Below are positions 3,255 through 9,776 of a stretch of 64,000 bases of DNA, one piece after another. This DNA is from a virus. Its lineage: Duplodnaviria > Caudoviricetes. The position numbers and the translations under genes are program-made. Each line of letters opens with the position of its first letter. The first letter of the stretch is position 1. The stretch is taken from positions 32,001-96,000 of IMG/VR virus record IMGVR_UViG_3300037851_000284. One strand, 5' to 3'. A model generated the notes under the pieces. It did no database searches. It worked only from the letters and a program-made list of their open reading frames with translations, and was not told the origin of the DNA.

Positions 3255-3339
3255 GGAGAGTTAGGATAACGGTAATCCATTAGGTTGCTAACCTAACGAC
3301 CCAAAAAGGGTCTTGCAAGTTCAAATCTTGTACTCTCCT
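3255..3339 (+). tRNA. trnS: tRNA-Ser(GCT)
   Basis: Acceptor GGAGAGT/ACTCTCC, anticodon arm TTAGG-TTGCTAA-CCTAA, long variable arm GACCC-AAAAA-GGGTC. Confidence 0.92.
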
Positions 3340-5360: not shown

Positions 5361-5587
5361 GAAATTAGAAAAATCGTGGTGAAGAATTTGATGGCAGTAT
5401 TAAATTTAAGAGATGTAGATTATGCTCTAGACATTGTGGAGGAAAAGTAAATTTAATCAGACATAGTAGGGTCATTTTTAGATCACCTCCGTGCCATACT
5501 AATAAGATTGAATTATGTAGACAATGCATAAGGAACCCGCTTACACAAAATAGAATAAGCATGGGTTATTTCAAGGGAACACCATGA
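5357..5587 (+). pseudogene. Cys-rich small gene interrupted by in-frame TAG at codon 4
   Basis: GTG overlaps upstream stop (GTGA) and TGA overlaps downstream start (ATGA); reads MRN*KNRG...CRLCSRHC...CRQC. Confidence 0.45.
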
Positions 5588-5940
5588 AAATTCTAATATT
5601 AGAGGATAGTTCAGATAGGATAGACGAATTCAAGAAAAAACTTGTCAGCCACGAAGTAGTTATAACAAACAAGCCAAGTGAATGTATCAAGTTTCTTGAG
5701 GAAGGGAAATGGGACTATCTATTTCTAGACCACGATATGGGTGTAATATTTGAGAAACCCAGTAAAGGCACAGGTTATGAAGTAGCATTGTGGATAGCAG
5801 AACATACTGAATATTGTCCAAGGCATATACTTATTCATAGTATGAATAATGTAGGTGCCGCTGCTATGATGCAAGTTCTTGGTTCTGTTGGAGTAAGAGC
5901 TACTTATATACCCCTTTTATGGGAAAAGATAAGAATATAA
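5584..5940 (+). CDS. cyclic-phosphate-processing receiver-like domain (cREC type)
   Basis: ILILED ... LFLDHDMG ... GTGYEVALW ... IHSMNNVG: DHD and HSxN motifs typical of this divergent receiver family. Confidence 0.75.
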   Translation: MKILILEDSSDRIDEFKKKLVSHEVVITNKPSECIKFLEEGKWDYLFLDHDMGVIFEKPSKGTGYEVALWIAEHTEYCPRHILIHSMNNVGAAAMMQVLGSVGVRATYIPLLWEKIRI

Positions 5941-6359: not shown

Positions 6360-6911
6360 ATGGAATTCATACCATTTCCAAAAATACACAGGATATCCAG
6401 ACCTTGTGTTGTTACAGAAAAGATTGATGGCACAAATGCATGTATATGTATTACCAAAGAAGGAGAATTCCTAACTGGTTCACGTACCAAATGGATAACT
6501 CCTTCCGATGATAATCATGGGTTCTCAAAGTGGGCCCATGAGAACAAAGACGAACTGTTAAAACTCGGTATTGGCTGTCATCATGGAGAATGGTGGGGAC
6601 AGGAGATTCAAAGAACATATGGATTAAAGGAAAAGAGGTTTTCTCTATTTAATACATCTAAATGGCTAGACCCACTTGTAAGACCAAAATGTTGTCATAT
6701 TGTACCAGTATTATATGAGGGCTTATTTGACACTGTGGAAATAAACAAATGTCTGGATCGCCTTGCTCAAACAGGAAGCATAGCAGCACCAAACTTTATG
6801 AAACCAGAAGGAATAGTTATATTTCATGTAGCTGGAAATTTTTGCCTAAAAAAGACTTTAAACAATGATGGATTACCAAAGAGTTTGGTAAAGGAGGAAC
6901 AGCATGCCTAG
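6360..6911 (+). CDS. ATP-dependent RNA ligase (compact adenylyltransferase domain)
   Basis: FPKI start, motif I TEKIDGTN, GEWWG, PEGIVI, terminal KK. Confidence 0.85.
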   Translation: MEFIPFPKIHRISRPCVVTEKIDGTNACICITKEGEFLTGSRTKWITPSDDNHGFSKWAHENKDELLKLGIGCHHGEWWGQEIQRTYGLKEKRFSLFNTSKWLDPLVRPKCCHIVPVLYEGLFDTVEINKCLDRLAQTGSIAAPNFMKPEGIVIFHVAGNFCLKKTLNNDGLPKSLVKEEQHA

Positions 6912-6976: not shown

Positions 6977-7282
6977 ATGAAGAACCTCCGGAAGAGGAAG
7001 ATGATGATAACATGGGACAAACATCCTGATATAGTTACTAGGAAAAGAACATCTAAACTGGGTATTTGCAATAGATGCGACTCCTTCTCTTCCTTATTTA
7101 CTTCGGGTGATGGTTATTATCTCTGTAGAGAATGTTACAGAGATATAATTGGTAGCATATTTGATACAGAACTAAATGAAAAAATAAATAAGATGAGGAA
7201 AGAAAGAGAATTAAACGCAAGAGAGTTTGATTTTATTAACAGGAGAAAAAGGGGTCTCTGTCCATTAGTACTGAGATGGTAA
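6977..7282 (+). CDS. small Zn-finger hypothetical protein
   Basis: CNRC ... CREC. Confidence 0.5.
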   Translation: MKNLRKRKMMITWDKHPDIVTRKRTSKLGICNRCDSFSSLFTSGDGYYLCRECYRDIIGSIFDTELNEKINKMRKERELNAREFDFINRRKRGLCPLVLRW

Positions 7283-7357
7283 TTCCTTCTTCCTTTTTGA
7301 ATTATTCGGATGATATTTTGTTTCGTTAGGGAACATGAACAAAGTATCAAGATAAGC

Positions 7358-7439
7358 TGGAGTTTCAACGTTAGTGTTGTACCTGTTCATTACTGGTTTC
7401 TAGTGGTAAGTAACTAAGGGGTAAACACGATATTATCCA
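7358..7439 (+). ncRNA. candidate structured RNA (nested hairpin)
   Basis: TGGA/TCCA, GTGTT/AACAC, TACC/GGTA and ATTACTGG/CTAGTGGT nested pairings in an intergenic gap. Confidence 0.35.
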
Positions 7440-7442
7440 ATA

Positions 7443-7561
7443 GCGGGTGTAGTACAGAGTTACTTCTGGTTTAATGCGAAAGCAGAGTGGGTCGAATCCC
7501 ACAACCCTATAGAAATATAGGTCTTGTCTCTGTATAATTTGTCTCTGTATAATTTGCCCGC
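7443..7561 (+). ncRNA. Y-RNA-like unit A (with T-arm-like hairpin)
   Basis: GCGGG/CCCGC; TGTAG; TACAGAG/CTCTGTA; TTACTTC; inner GTGGG-TCGAAT-CCCAC and CCTATA-GAAA-TATAGG. Confidence 0.65.
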
Positions 7562-7571
7562 AAAAATTTAA

Positions 7572-7651
7572 AAGAAACTGGGTGTAGATAGCAGATACTT
7601 CACTTTTATTGAAAAAAGCAGAAACCCTGCTATTGATTTAATCAGTTTCTT
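7572..7651 (+). ncRNA. Y-RNA-like unit B
   Basis: AAGAAACTG/CAGTTTCTT; TGTAG; ATAGCAG/CTGCTAT; ATACTTC; inner TTCA-CTTTTAT-TGAA. Confidence 0.65.
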
Positions 7652-7665
7652 TTCAGTATAAACCT

Positions 7666-7737
7666 GTGGGTGTAGAAAACTGTTACTTCGACTGCTAATC
7701 GACGCCCGAAAGGGATATCAGTTTTCGCTTTTCCCAC
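7666..7737 (+). ncRNA. Y-RNA-like unit C
   Basis: GTGGG/CCCAC; TGTAG; AAAACTG/CAGTTTT; TTACTTC; inner TCGA-CTGCTAA-TCGA and CCC-GAAA-GGG. Confidence 0.7.
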
Positions 7738-7758
7738 TTTTATTTTCTTGGAGGTAAT

Positions 7759-8133
7759 ATGCCTAGAATAAAGGTTGCGTTGTTAATATATAAACCGTTA
7801 TCAGACAATCAAGACCAACAAGATAAAATCCTTCTGGTAGAAAGACCAGATGGAAGTATGTCTATTCCAACAGTACAAGTTGGAGACTATCAAGGGATTA
7901 AGGAATGTATTGACCATTTAGTGAACCCTCACATGGAAATAGAAGAGACGGAACCAATTGGTATCTATGAAGATATGGATATAGAAATACATGATATCTA
8001 CATAGTATACCTGTGCGAAGTTAAAATAAAGGCAACAATCCCTTGTAATTATAAATGGATAACAGGAAAAAGCGTTAGCTTCCAATATAGACATATAGAC
8101 CAAAATTCAAGAGAAATTATTGAGATGTTATAA
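7759..8133 (+). CDS. NUDIX-fold protein with degenerate Nudix box
   Basis: KVALLI...KILLVERPDGSMSIP...G then no REUXEE; later IGIYED...IVYLC and KWI as in MutT-like fold. Confidence 0.55.
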   Translation: MPRIKVALLIYKPLSDNQDQQDKILLVERPDGSMSIPTVQVGDYQGIKECIDHLVNPHMEIEETEPIGIYEDMDIEIHDIYIVYLCEVKIKATIPCNYKWITGKSVSFQYRHIDQNSREIIEML

Positions 8134-8139
8134 AATTTT

Positions 8140-8199
8140 AAAGGGTGTAAACAAGAGATACTTCTACCATAATGAAACTCTCTTGCTGCTTTTCCCTTT
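8140..8199 (+). ncRNA. Y-RNA-like unit D (minimal)
   Basis: AAAGGG/CCCTTT; TGTAA; CAAGAG/CTCTTG; ATACTTC; TGCTTTT. Confidence 0.65.
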
Positions 8200-8213
8200 A
8201 TTAACATTACATC

Positions 8214-8277
8214 GGACGGGTGTAGTCGGGAGATACTTCTATAACGGTGAAAAAAACTCCCAACGCTTTACTCGTCC
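8214..8277 (+). ncRNA. Y-RNA-like unit E (minimal)
   Basis: GGACGGG/CTCGTCC; TGTAG; GGGAG/CTCCC; ATACTTC; CGCTTTA; ends 20 nt before the Ro60 start. Confidence 0.65.
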
Positions 8278-8297
8278 ATTTTTAAAAAGGAGAACGT

Positions 8298-9776
8298 ATG
8301 AAAGCGAATACAAGTGCTGAAGGACAGGGACTATCCAAGATAACCGACGGAGTAGTTCTAAATAAAGAAGGAGCAGTGGCTTACGCTCTGAAGGATAAAG
8401 AGAAACTAGTCACAGGTATTTTAACGAACTTCTTTAAAGAGCCTAAATTTTATGGAGATAATACCCCTGAGATAATCGAGACTGCCCGTAAGATTATACA
8501 GGAAGATCCAGAGTTCGTGGCAAAGGCAGCGTGCTTTGCACGTAACAAGTTTCATATGAGATCCATCTCTCATGCTCTTTCCGCCGAAGTAGCAAGAGGG
8601 GCAAAGGGGAATAAAATTGTCCGCAAGATGATCAGAAAAGTCATTGAGCGGGCCGATGATATGACTAACATTATATCATATCATATAAACACATGGGGAA
8701 AGCGTGGGAAAGAAAATCCTATTCCAAGAGGACTTCGAAGAGGTCTAGCCGATGTGTTTCCTCGGTTTGACGAGTATGCACTGGCAAAATACAAAGGAGA
8801 GAGCAAAACCGTCAAACTGCGTGACGTTCTCAAAATGATTCATCCCACTCCAAAGAATAAGGAGCAGGGTGAAATGTGGAAGCGTCTTATTGAGGGAACG
8901 CTGGCTACTCCTGAGACCAGAGAGACAATACTCTCTGATAAAGGACAGTCAAAGGAAGTATGGGAAAGTATCCTAGATGGTAAAGCGGGATACATGATGA
9001 TACTCCGCAACTTGAAAAATATACTTGAGCATGGTATAGATGATACTCATCTAGATAAAGTGTGCTCTCTATTGAAGGATCCTGATGAAGTTCGTTCCTC
9101 AAAACAACTTCCGTTCAGATTCCTTTCCGCATACAGAATGGTTCAAGATATGGGCAATCCGAGAGGAGCAAAGGTATTAGAAACTCTGGAAGATGCTCTT
9201 CTAACATCGACCGAGAACGTACAAAAGCTAAAAGGAATAACTGCTGTACTGACAGACGAATCAGGATCAATGACTCGTCTATTATCAAAAAACTCGTTAG
9301 TTAGGTACAGAGATGTTGGTAATTTGTTGGCAGCCATTTCACACAGAATATGTGATAGTTCTGTTATTGTCCCCTTTGGCACAGATGCTGTAGTATTAAC
9401 ACTTTCTCCTAGATCAAGCGTATTTGATAACATGAAGAGAATGAATAGTTCTGGTGTTGGCCACTCAACCAATGTACACATAGCTCTAGGAAAAGCATTC
9501 TCTGTAAATGTAAAAATAGACAGGATAATCCTGTTCTCAGATATGCAGGCTTATGGATGCTCAGATGGAATAAATTCCATGGTTCAGAACTACAGACGTG
9601 ATAAGAATTCCAACTTATGGGTACATTCTGTAGACCTAGCGGGATATGGAACCACCCAGTTAACGGATAAAGTTAATCTGATAGCAGGATGGTCAGAGAA
9701 GATTCTAGACTACATAGGTCTCGTCGAGAACAGAGGGTTAAGTCTTGTAGAAGATATTGAAAACTACAAGCTGTAA
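8298..9776 (+). CDS. Ro60/TROVE-domain RNA-binding protein with C-terminal vWA domain
   Basis: NKEGAVAY start, DPEFVAKAACFAR, YALAKY, HP, TWE-like TRETILS, YMMILRNL, LPFRFLSAY, MIDAS DESGS, FSDMQ, DLAGYG. Confidence 0.93.
   Translation: MKANTSAEGQGLSKITDGVVLNKEGAVAYALKDKEKLVTGILTNFFKEPKFYGDNTPEIIETARKIIQEDPEFVAKAACFARNKFHMRSISHALSAEVARGAKGNKIVRKMIRKVIERADDMTNIISYHINTWGKRGKENPIPRGLRRGLADVFPRFDEYALAKYKGESKTVKLRDVLKMIHPTPKNKEQGEMWKRLIEGTLATPETRETILSDKGQSKEVWESILDGKAGYMMILRNLKNILEHGIDDTHLDKVCSLLKDPDEVRSSKQLPFRFLSAYRMVQDMGNPRGAKVLETLEDALLTSTENVQKLKGITAVLTDESGSMTRLLSKNSLVRYRDVGNLLAAISHRICDSSVIVPFGTDAVVLTLSPRSSVFDNMKRMNSSGVGHSTNVHIALGKAFSVNVKIDRIILFSDMQAYGCSDGINSMVQNYRRDKNSNLWVHSVDLAGYGTTQLTDKVNLIAGWSEKILDYIGLVENRGLSLVEDIENYKL

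What the first reader, a model, noticed from the sequence alone, without database searches (positions are those of the whole stretch)
7599..8251. Y-RNA-like units display anticodon-loop mimics of different specificities (Lys-UUU, Ser-GCU, possibly Met-CAU)
Seen: the TTC of the conserved TACTTC opens a small hairpin at the same register in four units. B is TTCA-CTTTTAT-TGAA (canonical-looking loop, anticodon TTT). C is TCGA-CTGCTAA-TCGA (anticodon GCT, close to the TTGCTAA loop of the tRNA-Ser(GCT) at 3255). D is TTCT-ACCATAA-TGAA (CAT). E is TTCT-ATAACGG-TGAA (non-canonical). Unit A instead carries a T-arm-like GTGGG-TCGAAT-CCCAC. Established: anticodon nucleases such as PrrC cut tRNA-Lys(UUU) as anti-phage defence. 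Inference: these may be Ro60-held decoys or sensors for host anticodon nucleases, diversified like a bait library and recycled by the neighbouring ligase.
Basis: partly seen in the sequence, partly recalled or inferred. Interest (0 to 1): 0.75.

Follow-up and report, generated by a model that had tools for sequence, protein, structure and literature searches.

The report
Anticodon-loop look-alikes on phage Y RNAs
A 219-kb freshwater phage encodes five small Y-RNA-type genes beside its Ro60 gene; two carry a hairpin whose loop copies a tRNA anticodon loop, and related phages keep this loop frame while changing the middle three letters, which suggests a swappable specificity module of untested function.

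Summary
Five units share a covarying scaffold upstream of Ro60. They are divergent YrlA/YrlB-type Y RNAs that fall below Rfam's YrlA threshold.

Units B and C carry a 4-bp stem and a 7-nt loop, C-U-UUU-A-U and C-U-GCU-A-A. D and E have only 3 pairs and non-canonical loops. Unit A has a T-arm-like hairpin with a 6-nt loop.

The hairpin follows the conserved UUAC, which matches YrlA's YUAY motif. That is where YrlA's poorly conserved 'V' stem-loop lies.

In 15 related arrays the same position is strongly enriched for anticodon-type loops:
- CU-NNN-AA with at least 4 bp occurs in 11 of 71 units, against 0.15 expected.
- That is 39% of the 7-nt hairpins there, against 0.56% genome-wide.
- There are 17 different middle triplets, and A is avoided at the wobble position.

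Between two near-identical arrays, 5 of 12 triplet letters changed, against 5% of the other RNA positions and 8% in spacers.

So anticodon-arm mimicry and diversification are supported. The decoy, sensor and ligase-recycling function is untested. Taken alone the hairpins are thermodynamically marginal.

This scan has noted phage Ro60/Y-like tRNA mimics on other DNA before, but the notes retrieved do not describe this variable anticodon-like module.

The parts
7443..7561 (+). Unit A. Y-RNA-like gene with outer stem GCGGG/CCCGC, GGGUGUAG, stem UACAGAG/CUCUGUA, UUACUUC, a GAAA-capped hairpin, a T-arm-like hairpin, a second GAAA hairpin, and a 15-bp tandem duplication at 7524-7553.
   Evidence: (MFE -40.4, z -4.4)
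7487..7502 (+). T-arm-like hairpin GUGGG-UCGAAU-CCCAC of unit A. The loop is 6 nt, not 7.
   Evidence: related units L098:2490 and L104:1588 have the same layout
7570..7653 (+). Unit B. Short YrlB-like unit with an 11-bp outer stem at 7570-7580/7643-7653 and inner stem AUAGCAG/CUGCUAU.
   Evidence: z -4.0; I8
7599..7613 (+). Anticodon-arm-like hairpin of B: UUCA-CUUUUAU-UGAA, middle triplet UUU. It is marginal in energy and has a competing fold.
7665..7738 (+). Unit C. Short unit with outer stem GUGGG/CCCAC, inner stem AAAACUG/CAGUUUU, and a second hairpin CCC-GAAA-GGG.
7688..7702 (+). Anticodon-arm-like hairpin of C: UCGA-CUGCUAA-UCGA, middle triplet GCU. It is part of the minimum-energy fold of the unit.
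7759..8133 (+). ORF of 124 aa between units C and D. It has no Pfam hit here. The ORF in the same position in related arrays is a NUDIX protein.
8139..8198 (+). Unit D. Minimal unit with outer stem AAAGGG/CCCUUU, inner stem ACAAGAG/CUCUUG(C), and a 16-nt apical insert.
   Evidence: (z -3.3)
8161..8175 (+). Apical region of D: UUC-UACCAUAAU-GAA. Only 3 bp and no U33, so not a canonical anticodon-type loop.
8214..8277 (+). Unit E. Minimal unit with outer stem GGACGGG/CUCGUCC and inner stem UCGGGAG/CUCCCA(A).
   Evidence: (z -4.0)
8237..8251 (+). Apical region of E: UUC-UAUAACGGU-GAA. Only 3 bp and non-canonical.
8298..9776 (+). Ro60/TROVE protein of 492 aa, the presumed protein partner of the units.
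   Evidence: (PF05731, 1.5e-34)
5584..5940 (+). cREC (cyclic-phosphate-processing receiver) domain protein.
   Evidence: PF20274, 4.4e-18; syntenic in relatives
6360..6911 (+). Short RNA-ligase-domain protein of 183 aa.
   Evidence: PF09414, 6.9e-16; only 25% identity to part of the 394-aa ligase of L098
3255..3340 (+). Phage tRNA-Ser(GCU), used as a comparator. Its anticodon arm is UUAGG-UUGCUAA-CCUAA, and the stem is unrelated to unit C's.

Best explanation
The five units are divergent YrlA/YrlB-type Y RNA genes of a jumbo phage, presumably bound by the adjacent Ro60.

In units B and C the small hairpin that starts in the conserved UACUUC is an anticodon-stem-loop look-alike. It is a module shared by about a third of the units in related phage arrays. 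It is displayed in three contexts:
- alone on a short Y stem, as here;
- at the three-way junction where the YrlA tRNA-like domain is opened;
- as the true anticodon arm of a whole tRNA body nested in the Y scaffold.

Selection keeps the loop frame (C32, U33, A37, A38, plus a closing stem). The three middle letters are free or driven to change.

Inferred: the module lets the Ro60-Y RNA particle engage a factor that reads tRNA anticodon loops. Given the surrounding tRNA, RNA-ligase and cREC island, that factor is most likely a host tRNA-cutting defence nuclease, with the RNA acting as competitor or decoy.

Shown: sequence pattern, covariation, enrichment, triplet turnover. Inferred: Ro60 binding, folding in vivo, and any nuclease interaction.
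For: Scaffold:
- 10 of 13 consensus pairs show compensatory changes in 17 short units.
- The inner stem pairs 6-7 of 7 in nearly all units although the sequences differ.

Family:
- Rfam YrlA matches homologous units full-length at 30-47 bits.
- In that alignment the hairpin is an insert directly after YrlA's CUAc (YUAY) motif. The same place is called 'V' in PMC4201824.

Enrichment:
- Among 71 distinct units, loops [ACU]U-NNN-A[AU] with at least 3 bp occur 22 times, against 2.0 in shuffles (maximum 6 of 500).
- CU-NNN-AA with at least 4 bp occurs 11 times, against 0.15.
- Genome-wide only 0.56% of hairpins with at least 4 bp and a 7-nt loop are CU-NNN-AA, against 11 of 28 here (p 3e-18).

Loop profile of 27 curated loops:
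- Position 32: C in 21. Position 38: A in 25.
- Position 34: U 16, G 7, C 2, A 2, which resembles natural wobble usage.
- 17 distinct triplets.

Other tools:
- ARAGORN calls five such units tRNAs.
- One nested unit scores 57 bits on Rfam tRNA.

Turnover between arrays L019 and L225:
- UAU changed to CUU, and UUUGAAA to CUGCUAA, with identical stems.
- 5 of 12 triplet letters differ, against 49 of 978 other RNA positions (p 2.4e-4) and 26 of 310 spacer positions (p 0.003).

Context:
- cREC, RNA ligase, NUDIX and Ro60 are syntenic across relatives.
- The phage carries 20 tRNA genes, which lie upstream of the island.
- tRNA-cutting defences and phage tRNA countermeasures are established (PMC10264068, PMC11555353, PMC12409363).
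- A competitive-inhibitor role for YrlA has been suggested (PMC7790460).
Against: - Taken alone the hairpins are barely stable or unstable (+2.1 to -1.6 kcal/mol). Minimum-energy folds of the local sequence often choose other pairings, including for unit B.
- Stems in the window are 4 bp, not 5.
- Only about a third of units carry the module. The relative with the closest fetched Ro60 (L227, 60% identity) has none.
- Bacterial YrlA-like RNAs with the same UUACUUC motif mostly lack it.
- The turnover statistic rests on two multi-base events noticed before they were tested.
- Faster change at the triplet could reflect lack of constraint rather than selection. An ORF embedded in the same array is 29% diverged.
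- There is no expression, end-mapping or binding datum.
- Salmonella YrlA is not cut by the SOS-induced anticodon nuclease (PMC7790460).
Confidence: 0.5

Rival explanations
1. Evolutionary leftover. YrlA-type RNAs arose from tRNA (dimer) transcripts. The hairpin is the decaying anticodon arm of the upstream tRNA and has no present role.
For: - The order hairpin, variable loop, T arm matches tRNA positions 27-65.
- The tRNA-dimer origin model is published (10.1101/312249, discussion).
- Many units have degenerate or no hairpins, including window D and E and all units of L227.
- The hairpins are thermodynamically weak.
Against: - Decay should hit all loop positions. Yet C32, U33, A37 and A38 are kept in 21-26 of 27 loops, although U33 and A37 were part of the selection criterion, so only C32 and A38 are independent.
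- Between L019 and L225, 5 of 12 triplet letters changed, against 1 of 16 other loop letters.
- The L225 orthologue has a canonical closing pair where L019 has a mismatch, at two hairpins.
- The module persists in lineages whose Ro60 is only 36-45% identical.
Confidence: 0.17
2. Tether for an anticodon-arm-binding enzyme. The hairpin recruits a protein that recognises the shape of an anticodon arm but not its triplet, and brings it to Ro60. Candidates are the phage RNA ligase or healing enzymes, a tRNA modification enzyme, or a host RNase. The triplet simply drifts.
For: - Y RNAs are known tethers between Ro60 and effectors such as PNPase (PMC4201824, PMC12135203).
- The ligase and cREC genes are syntenic with the arrays.
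- Unconstrained triplets would also look fast compared with constrained RNA positions.
Against: - Triplets changed faster than non-coding spacers (42% against 8%).
- A is avoided at position 34 (2 of 27), which drift in AT-rich sequence would not give.
- Arrays carry several different triplets side by side.
Confidence: 0.23
3. No real module in this window. B and C resemble anticodon loops by chance, and the conserved UACUUC serves only the YrlA kink or junction.
For: - UUACUUC is conserved in bacterial YrlA-like RNAs that lack the hairpin.
- B has an alternative fold and a positive hairpin energy.
- No close orthologues of the window's own units were found.
Against: - Chance expectation per unit is about 0.011, and two of five units match.
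- The same register and loop frame recur in 15 related arrays.
- C's hairpin is in the unit's minimum-energy fold.
Confidence: 0.07

Closest known systems
YrlA (Y RNA-like A; Rfam RF02553; Salmonella, Mycobacterium, mycobacteriophages; PMC4201824, 10.1101/312249)
   Same: - Encoded next to Ro60 on the same strand.
- Closing stem with a conserved 5' motif.
- YUAY motif, here UUAC/AUAC.
- In homologous units, a T arm, closed acceptor stem and D arm in the YrlA order.
- A stem-loop ('V') can precede the T arm.
   Different: - The 5' motif is GG(U/C)G(U/C)AG rather than GNCGAAN0-1G.
- No unit of the window reaches any Rfam score, and homologues reach 30-47 bits against the 69-bit threshold.
- Published YrlA is described as lacking an anticodon loop. 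Here the pre-T hairpin carries a C-U-NNN-A-A loop with a hypervariable triplet.
- Arrays hold up to 9 units.
- Window units B-E have no tRNA-like body at all.
YrlB, Yrn2 and other short Y RNAs (long hairpin with a small loop; PMC4201824)
   Same: Units B-E are short stem-bulge-stem RNAs that share the Ro-site scaffold with the longer unit and are encoded in the same cluster.
   Different: Published short Y RNAs end in a small pyrimidine-rich loop. B and C end in an anticodon-arm-like hairpin, and C has an added GAAA hairpin.
D. radiodurans Yrn1 'anticodon arm' (PMC4201824, section 6)
   Same: A Y RNA that can be drawn with a stem-loop in the anticodon-arm position.
   Different: Yrn1 has a 6-nt loop and was not reported to have the conserved 32/33/37/38 frame or triplet variation. 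Its orientation of arms is different.
Phage-encoded tRNAs that bypass tRNA-cutting defences (PMC10264068, PMC11555353, PMC12409363)
   Same: Phage RNA with an anticodon arm, encoded in tRNA-rich regions. Anticodon-loop sequence is the battleground with host nucleases.
   Different: Those are decoding tRNAs that replace cut host tRNAs. The units here have no free acceptor end and cannot decode. Any role would be as competitor, decoy or sensor, which is untested.
TYMV tRNA-like structure and tmRNA-SmpB (tRNA mimics with an anticodon-domain mimic; 10.1101/312249)
   Same: Non-tRNA molecules that imitate the anticodon domain as well as the elbow.
   Different: Those have free CCA ends and are aminoacylated. 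Their anticodon-domain mimic is fixed, not a variable cassette.

Membership tests
YrlA / Y RNA-like (RF02553) | Encoded within about 2-4 kb of a Ro60/TROVE gene, on the same strand | tested here: met
   Units lie at 7443-8277 and Ro60 at 8298-9776, all on the + strand. The same holds in 15 related loci.
YrlA / Y RNA-like (RF02553) | 5' Ro-binding motif GNCGAAN0-1G | tested here: not met
   All five units have GGGUGUA(G/A). Relatives have GGUGCAG, GGCGUAG or AGUGCAG. This resembles the published motif, with GGCGUAG closest, but is not the same. Whether Ro60 binds it is unknown.
YrlA / Y RNA-like (RF02553) | Conserved YUAY after the 5' stem strand | tested here: met
   UUAC or AUAC in all five units. 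It aligns to CUAc of the Rfam model in L105.
YrlA / Y RNA-like (RF02553) | 5'/3' closing stem supported by covariation | tested here: met
   10 of 13 pairs have compensatory changes.
YrlA / Y RNA-like (RF02553) | tRNA-like domain with T arm, closed acceptor stem and D arm | tested here: not met
   In the window only unit A has a T-arm-like hairpin, with a 6-nt loop and no D arm. B-E have none. The feature is met in homologous units such as L105:3784, L103:3827 and L101:3352.
YrlA / Y RNA-like (RF02553) | Score at or above Rfam's gathering threshold (69 bits) | tested here: not met
   No YrlA match in the window even at E up to 10. Homologues reach 30-47 bits.
YrlA / Y RNA-like (RF02553) | Bound and stabilised by Ro60 | not testable with these tools
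   No RNA or binding data. No RNA sequencing run was listed.
tRNA anticodon stem-loop (as a mimic) | 7-nt loop with U33 and purine 37 | tested here: met
   B is CUUUUAU and C is CUGCUAA. It is not met for D (C at position 33). E meets it only if a U.U pair closes the loop.
tRNA anticodon stem-loop (as a mimic) | 5-bp stem of tRNA-like stability | tested here: not met
   B and C have 4 bp, and D and E have 3 bp. Energies are +0.9, -0.8, +1.5 and +1.5 kcal/mol, against -2.2 to -4.3 for the phage's own tRNA anticodon arms in the same drawn fold (5 bp, 7-nt loop). Some homologues have 5-bp stems, such as L101:2758 and L104:1849.
tRNA anticodon stem-loop (as a mimic) | Conserved 32/33/37/38 with variable 34-36 across relatives | tested here: met
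   C32 in 21 of 27, U33 in 26, A37 in 26, A38 in 25 (33 and 37 were partly fixed by the selection criterion), and 17 different triplets.
tRNA anticodon stem-loop (as a mimic) | Recognised (bound or cut) by an anticodon-reading protein | not testable with these tools
   This needs biochemistry or infection experiments.
tRNA gene | Cloverleaf recognised by ARAGORN or the Rfam tRNA model, with a free acceptor end | tested here: not met
   No tRNA call at 7200-8400. Some homologous units are called tRNA, but they are enclosed in the Y scaffold.

The most novel reading that the evidence does not exclude
The Ro60-linked Y RNA arrays of this phage clade are a swappable bait library. Each unit presents one anticodon-arm look-alike on a Ro60 handle to soak up, block or report a host anticodon nuclease of matching specificity. 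Triplet switching between near-identical phages would then track the defence repertoire of their hosts. This would give a first concrete function to the tRNA-like side of bacterial and phage Y RNAs.
Probability: 0.22. Interest if true: 0.9.

Novelty: new variant of a known kind. Interest (0 to 1): 0.66.

Why it matters
The function of the tRNA-like part of bacterial and phage Y RNAs has been open since 2014. The published YrlA structure paper stresses that YrlA lacks an anticodon loop.

A phage lineage in which Y RNAs do display anticodon-type loops makes the 'competitor of tRNA nucleases' idea directly testable. The loop frame is conserved, the triplets vary, and several different ones sit in each array. 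Triplet swaps can be tried against defined nucleases.

It also supports a tRNA origin for these RNAs. It shows Y RNAs as modular scaffolds that carry interchangeable RNA modules.

Tried and rejected
- Rfam at the gathering threshold and at E up to 10 on the window gave no Y RNA or tRNA family over the units.
- Rfam gathering search of 17 more distant Ro60 loci gave only tRNAs and one Flavo-1 match, with no YrlA.
- blastn of the region against 50,697 phage records gave no match.
- Single-protein scan of viral contigs gave nothing.
- Pattern scan of viral contigs with GGTGTAG-N7-9-TTACTTC gave only single matches at about the expected random rate and was discarded.
- No DNA was available for the contigs of P0003 and P0026.
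- Vibrio phage Va1 and the uncultured 635-kb phage LR745206, both with distant Ro60, showed no units of this type by my patterns.
- Sequencing runs: no RNA holder is listed. Three freshwater DNA runs hold the stretch, one of which may be its source. Contigs laid from them are identical to the window, with one doubtful letter in a low-depth contig, so they gave no strain variation.
- I tested whether displayed triplets match the phage's own 19 anticodons. The result, 21 of 27 against 62% expected from composition (p 0.07), is not significant and was dropped.
- Hairpin stems do not match the anticodon stems of the phage's tRNA-Lys or tRNA-Ser, so they are not recent copies.
- Minimum-energy folding of 32-nt segments is too unstable a guide for these AU-rich hairpins. 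Pattern counts against shuffles and against the genome background were used instead.
- Two review papers on bacterial Y RNAs (PMC10870794, PMC6047535) are not held, so I could not check whether they mention anticodon-like V loops.

Full report
**What is in the window**

The window is part of a 219-kb virus record that is about 95% complete. Between a short RNA-ligase-domain gene (6360-6911) and a TROVE/Ro60 gene (8298-9776) lie five units. Each starts with GGGTGTA(G/A)-N7-(T/A)TACTTC. The starts are at 7445, 7580, 7668, 8143 and 8218, all on the + strand. These are the only five occurrences in the genome.

Each unit folds as follows:
- an outer stem;
- an asymmetric internal loop, 5' UGUA against 3' GUUUUU-like;
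- a 7-bp inner stem;
- an apical region that begins with UUACUUC.

Folding z-scores run from -2.1 to -4.4.

An alignment of 17 short units from this and related phages gives a consensus of 13 pairs. Ten of them show compensatory changes. A 124-aa ORF sits between units C and D. In related arrays the ORF in the same position is a NUDIX protein.

**The observation**

Units B and C are as described:
- B is UUCA-CUUUUAU-UGAA (7599-7613).
- C is UCGA-CUGCUAA-UCGA (7688-7702).
- The phage tRNA-Ser(GCU) loop is UUGCUAA.

D and E pair only through UUC/GAA. That gives 3 bp and a 9-nt loop, or a 7-nt loop closed by U.U. D has C where U33 should be. 'Met-CAU' is therefore not supported.

Unit A's GUGGG-UCGAAU-CCCAC is real, but its loop is one U short of a T-loop.

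Taken alone the hairpins are marginal, at +0.9, -0.8, +1.5 and +1.5 kcal/mol. B has a competing local fold.

**What family this is**

Rfam finds nothing over the window units. The Ro60 protein has relatives at 50-61% identity on long phage-like contigs. I fetched 15 related loci.

They are syntenic, with cREC, RNA ligase, often NUDIX, then Ro60, an OsmC-like gene and a BRCT gene. They carry 1 to 9 units of the same scaffold upstream of Ro60.

Several longer units give full-length but sub-threshold matches to Rfam YrlA, at 30-47 bits against the 69-bit threshold. In the alignment of L105:3780-3914:
- our UUAC falls on YrlA's conserved CUAc, the published YUAY motif;
- the small hairpin is an insertion right after it.

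Chen et al. [quoted passage not shown] The structure paper (10.1101/312249) states that YrlA lacks the anticodon loop. So the units are divergent YrlA/YrlB-type Y RNAs, and the hairpin sits at a place already named.

The 5' motif GG(U/C)G(U/C)AG differs from the published GNCGAAN0-1G. Bacterial YrlA-like RNAs of Flavobacterium, Chryseobacterium and Clostridium also carry UUACUUC, mostly without the hairpin.

**Is the anticodon-loop likeness more than chance?**

I took the 33 nt that start at the ACT of TACTT in the 71 distinct units matching the core 5' motif; L227's variant-motif units were examined separately. I counted hairpins that start within the first bases and have a 7-nt loop:

| Loop pattern | Minimum stem | Observed | Dinucleotide shuffles |
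|---|---|---|---|
| [ACU]U-NNN-A[AU] | 3 bp | 22 units | mean 2.0, maximum 6 of 500 |
| CU-NNN-AA | 4 bp | 11 units | mean 0.15 |

As a second control I used all 9,866 hairpins with at least 4 bp and a 7-nt loop in the phage genome, leaving out the tRNAs and the array. Only 0.56% of them are CU-NNN-AA, against 11 of 28 at this position (p 3e-18).

In 27 curated loops the profile is:
- position 32: C in 21;
- position 38: A in 25;
- wobble position 34: U 16, G 7, C 2, A 2, which resembles natural anticodons;
- 17 different triplets.

ARAGORN itself calls five such units tRNAs.

The module appears in three settings:
- alone on a short unit (window B and C, L098:2941, L104:1748);
- just before the variable loop and T arm of YrlA-type units, where a 3-bp helix (CGU/ACG or AGC/GCU) joins it to the tRNA-like body (L105:3784, L103:3827, L101:3352);
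- as the genuine 5-bp anticodon arm of a nearly complete tRNA body nested in the scaffold (L019:1077, 57 bits on Rfam tRNA).

It also occurs in lineages whose Ro60 is only 36-45% identical (L046, L023, L025, L026). About two thirds of units lack it. The relative with the closest fetched Ro60, L227, has none.

**Triplet turnover**

Arrays L019 and L225 are 92-97% identical in the RNA units and spacers. The differences pile up in the loops:
- AUUGA-CUUAUAA-UCAAU became AUUGA-CUCUUAA-UCAAU.
- UUUAU-UUUGAAA-AUAAA became UUUAU-CUGCUAA-AUAAA.

The stems are identical. At two other hairpins, where L019 has a mismatch at the closing pair, L225 has a canonical pair.

| Positions compared | Changed | Test against the triplets |
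|---|---|---|
| Triplet letters | 5 of 12 | - |
| Other RNA positions | 49 of 978 | p 2.4e-4 |
| Spacer positions | 26 of 310 | p 0.003 |
| Other loop letters | 1 of 16 | not tested |

Other orthologous groups show the same pattern:
- CUUU-AUUCUAA-AAGG against CUUU-CUGUUAU-AAAG;
- GGA-CUUUUAA-UCC against GGA-AUUGUAA-UCC.

Caveats: the test rests on two multi-base events that I noticed before testing. An ORF embedded in the array is 29% diverged, so the local neutral rate is uncertain.

**How it most likely works**

Shown:
- a covarying Y-RNA-type scaffold next to Ro60;
- a recurrent hairpin with the anticodon-loop frame;
- a hypervariable middle triplet;
- several different triplets per array.

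Inferred:
- Ro60 binds the conserved internal loop.
- The hairpin folds in the particle, since its own stability is too low to be sure.
- The hairpin is read by a factor that recognises anticodon loops.

The genomic setting points to the conflict over tRNA cleavage. The phage has 20 tRNA genes, which lie upstream of the island. The island holds a cREC domain predicted to process cyclic phosphates, plus an RNA ligase (PMC7824862). That conflict is well documented (PMC10264068, PMC11555353, PMC12409363).

A competitive-inhibitor role for YrlA was already suggested by Hughes et al. (PMC7790460). I therefore rank 'competitor or decoy for tRNA-cutting nucleases' first among the functions, at modest confidence.

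The rivals are:
- a shape-only tether for the ligase or another enzyme, with the triplet drifting;
- a decaying tRNA relic;
- chance, for the two window hairpins.

Ligase 'recycling' has no evidence for or against it.

**Novelty**

Already known:
- phage Ro60 with Y-like RNAs (PMC4201824, PMC12135203, PMC7824862), which this scan has also noted repeatedly on other DNA;
- tRNA mimicry by YrlA, and the existence of a V stem-loop.

I did not find the following in the papers I could read, or in the scan notes retrieved:
- the anticodon-loop frame of that hairpin;
- its display on minimal units;
- the diversity of triplets within arrays;
- triplet switching between near-identical phages.

Two reviews could not be read. 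I class the finding as a new variant of a known kind.

Noticed in passing
L104:1475-1567, L012:2717-2812, L102:2650-2749, L101:1842-1997 (and others): A second recurrent module occurs in homologous units. It is GUGAAAUUCAGAGC followed by a hairpin with a covarying 3-4-bp stem and a conserved GU(U)AUAGYC loop. There was no Rfam match at E up to 0.1 and its function is unknown.
   Followed up: partly
L098:2490-2641, L101:2145-2292, L103:3033-3227, L104:1588-1731, L019:~2030-2070: A third recurrent module, GAAGCACGACGUGAUGCUCG(C)CA, lies near the 3' side of several long units. It is not present in the window's units.
   Followed up: no
window 7524-7553: There is an exact 15-bp tandem duplication (TTGTCTCTGTATAAT, twice) inside unit A's 3' half. 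It duplicates the inner-stem 3' strand and creates two TATAAT promoter-like sites just upstream of unit B.
   Followed up: partly
window 6360-6911: The RNA-ligase-domain protein is only 183 aa. It is 25% identical to residues 209-367 of the 394-aa ligase (PHA02142 plus RNA_ligase) found at the same place in relatives. No second copy exists in the genome.
   Followed up: partly
window 7759-8133: The ORF between units C and D has no Pfam match, while its positional counterparts in L098 and L104 are NUDIX proteins. It may be a degenerate NUDIX.
   Followed up: no
L019:726-1054, L225:1483-1816, L224:1981: One unit carries an insert of about 290 nt that starts with a T arm followed by GAUUCCCCGCCAC, an acceptor-3'-strand-like run. 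It is 97% conserved between L019 and L225. ARAGORN and Rfam give no tmRNA or other call.
   Followed up: no
G000:C1:28915-28992 (outside the window, just upstream): The phage tRNA-Ile(GAU) begins with GGGUGUA, the same seven bases as the Y scaffold's 5' motif. One homologous unit (L012:3348) displays the GAU triplet. This may be coincidence (roughly 1 in 12 by my estimate) or a trace of origin.
   Followed up: no
L006, L010, L014, L046, L238, L301: Many distant Ro60 loci, both phage and bacterial, sit directly beside arrays of 4-20 tRNA genes.
   Followed up: no
window 7448-7463 and equivalents: The conserved GUAG and UUAC that flank the 7-nt inner-stem strand are complementary to each other (G-C, U-A, A-U, G-U). 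A D-arm-like alternative hairpin is therefore possible, which is how ARAGORN and the Rfam tRNA model read it. Covariation favours the inner stem instead.
   Followed up: partly
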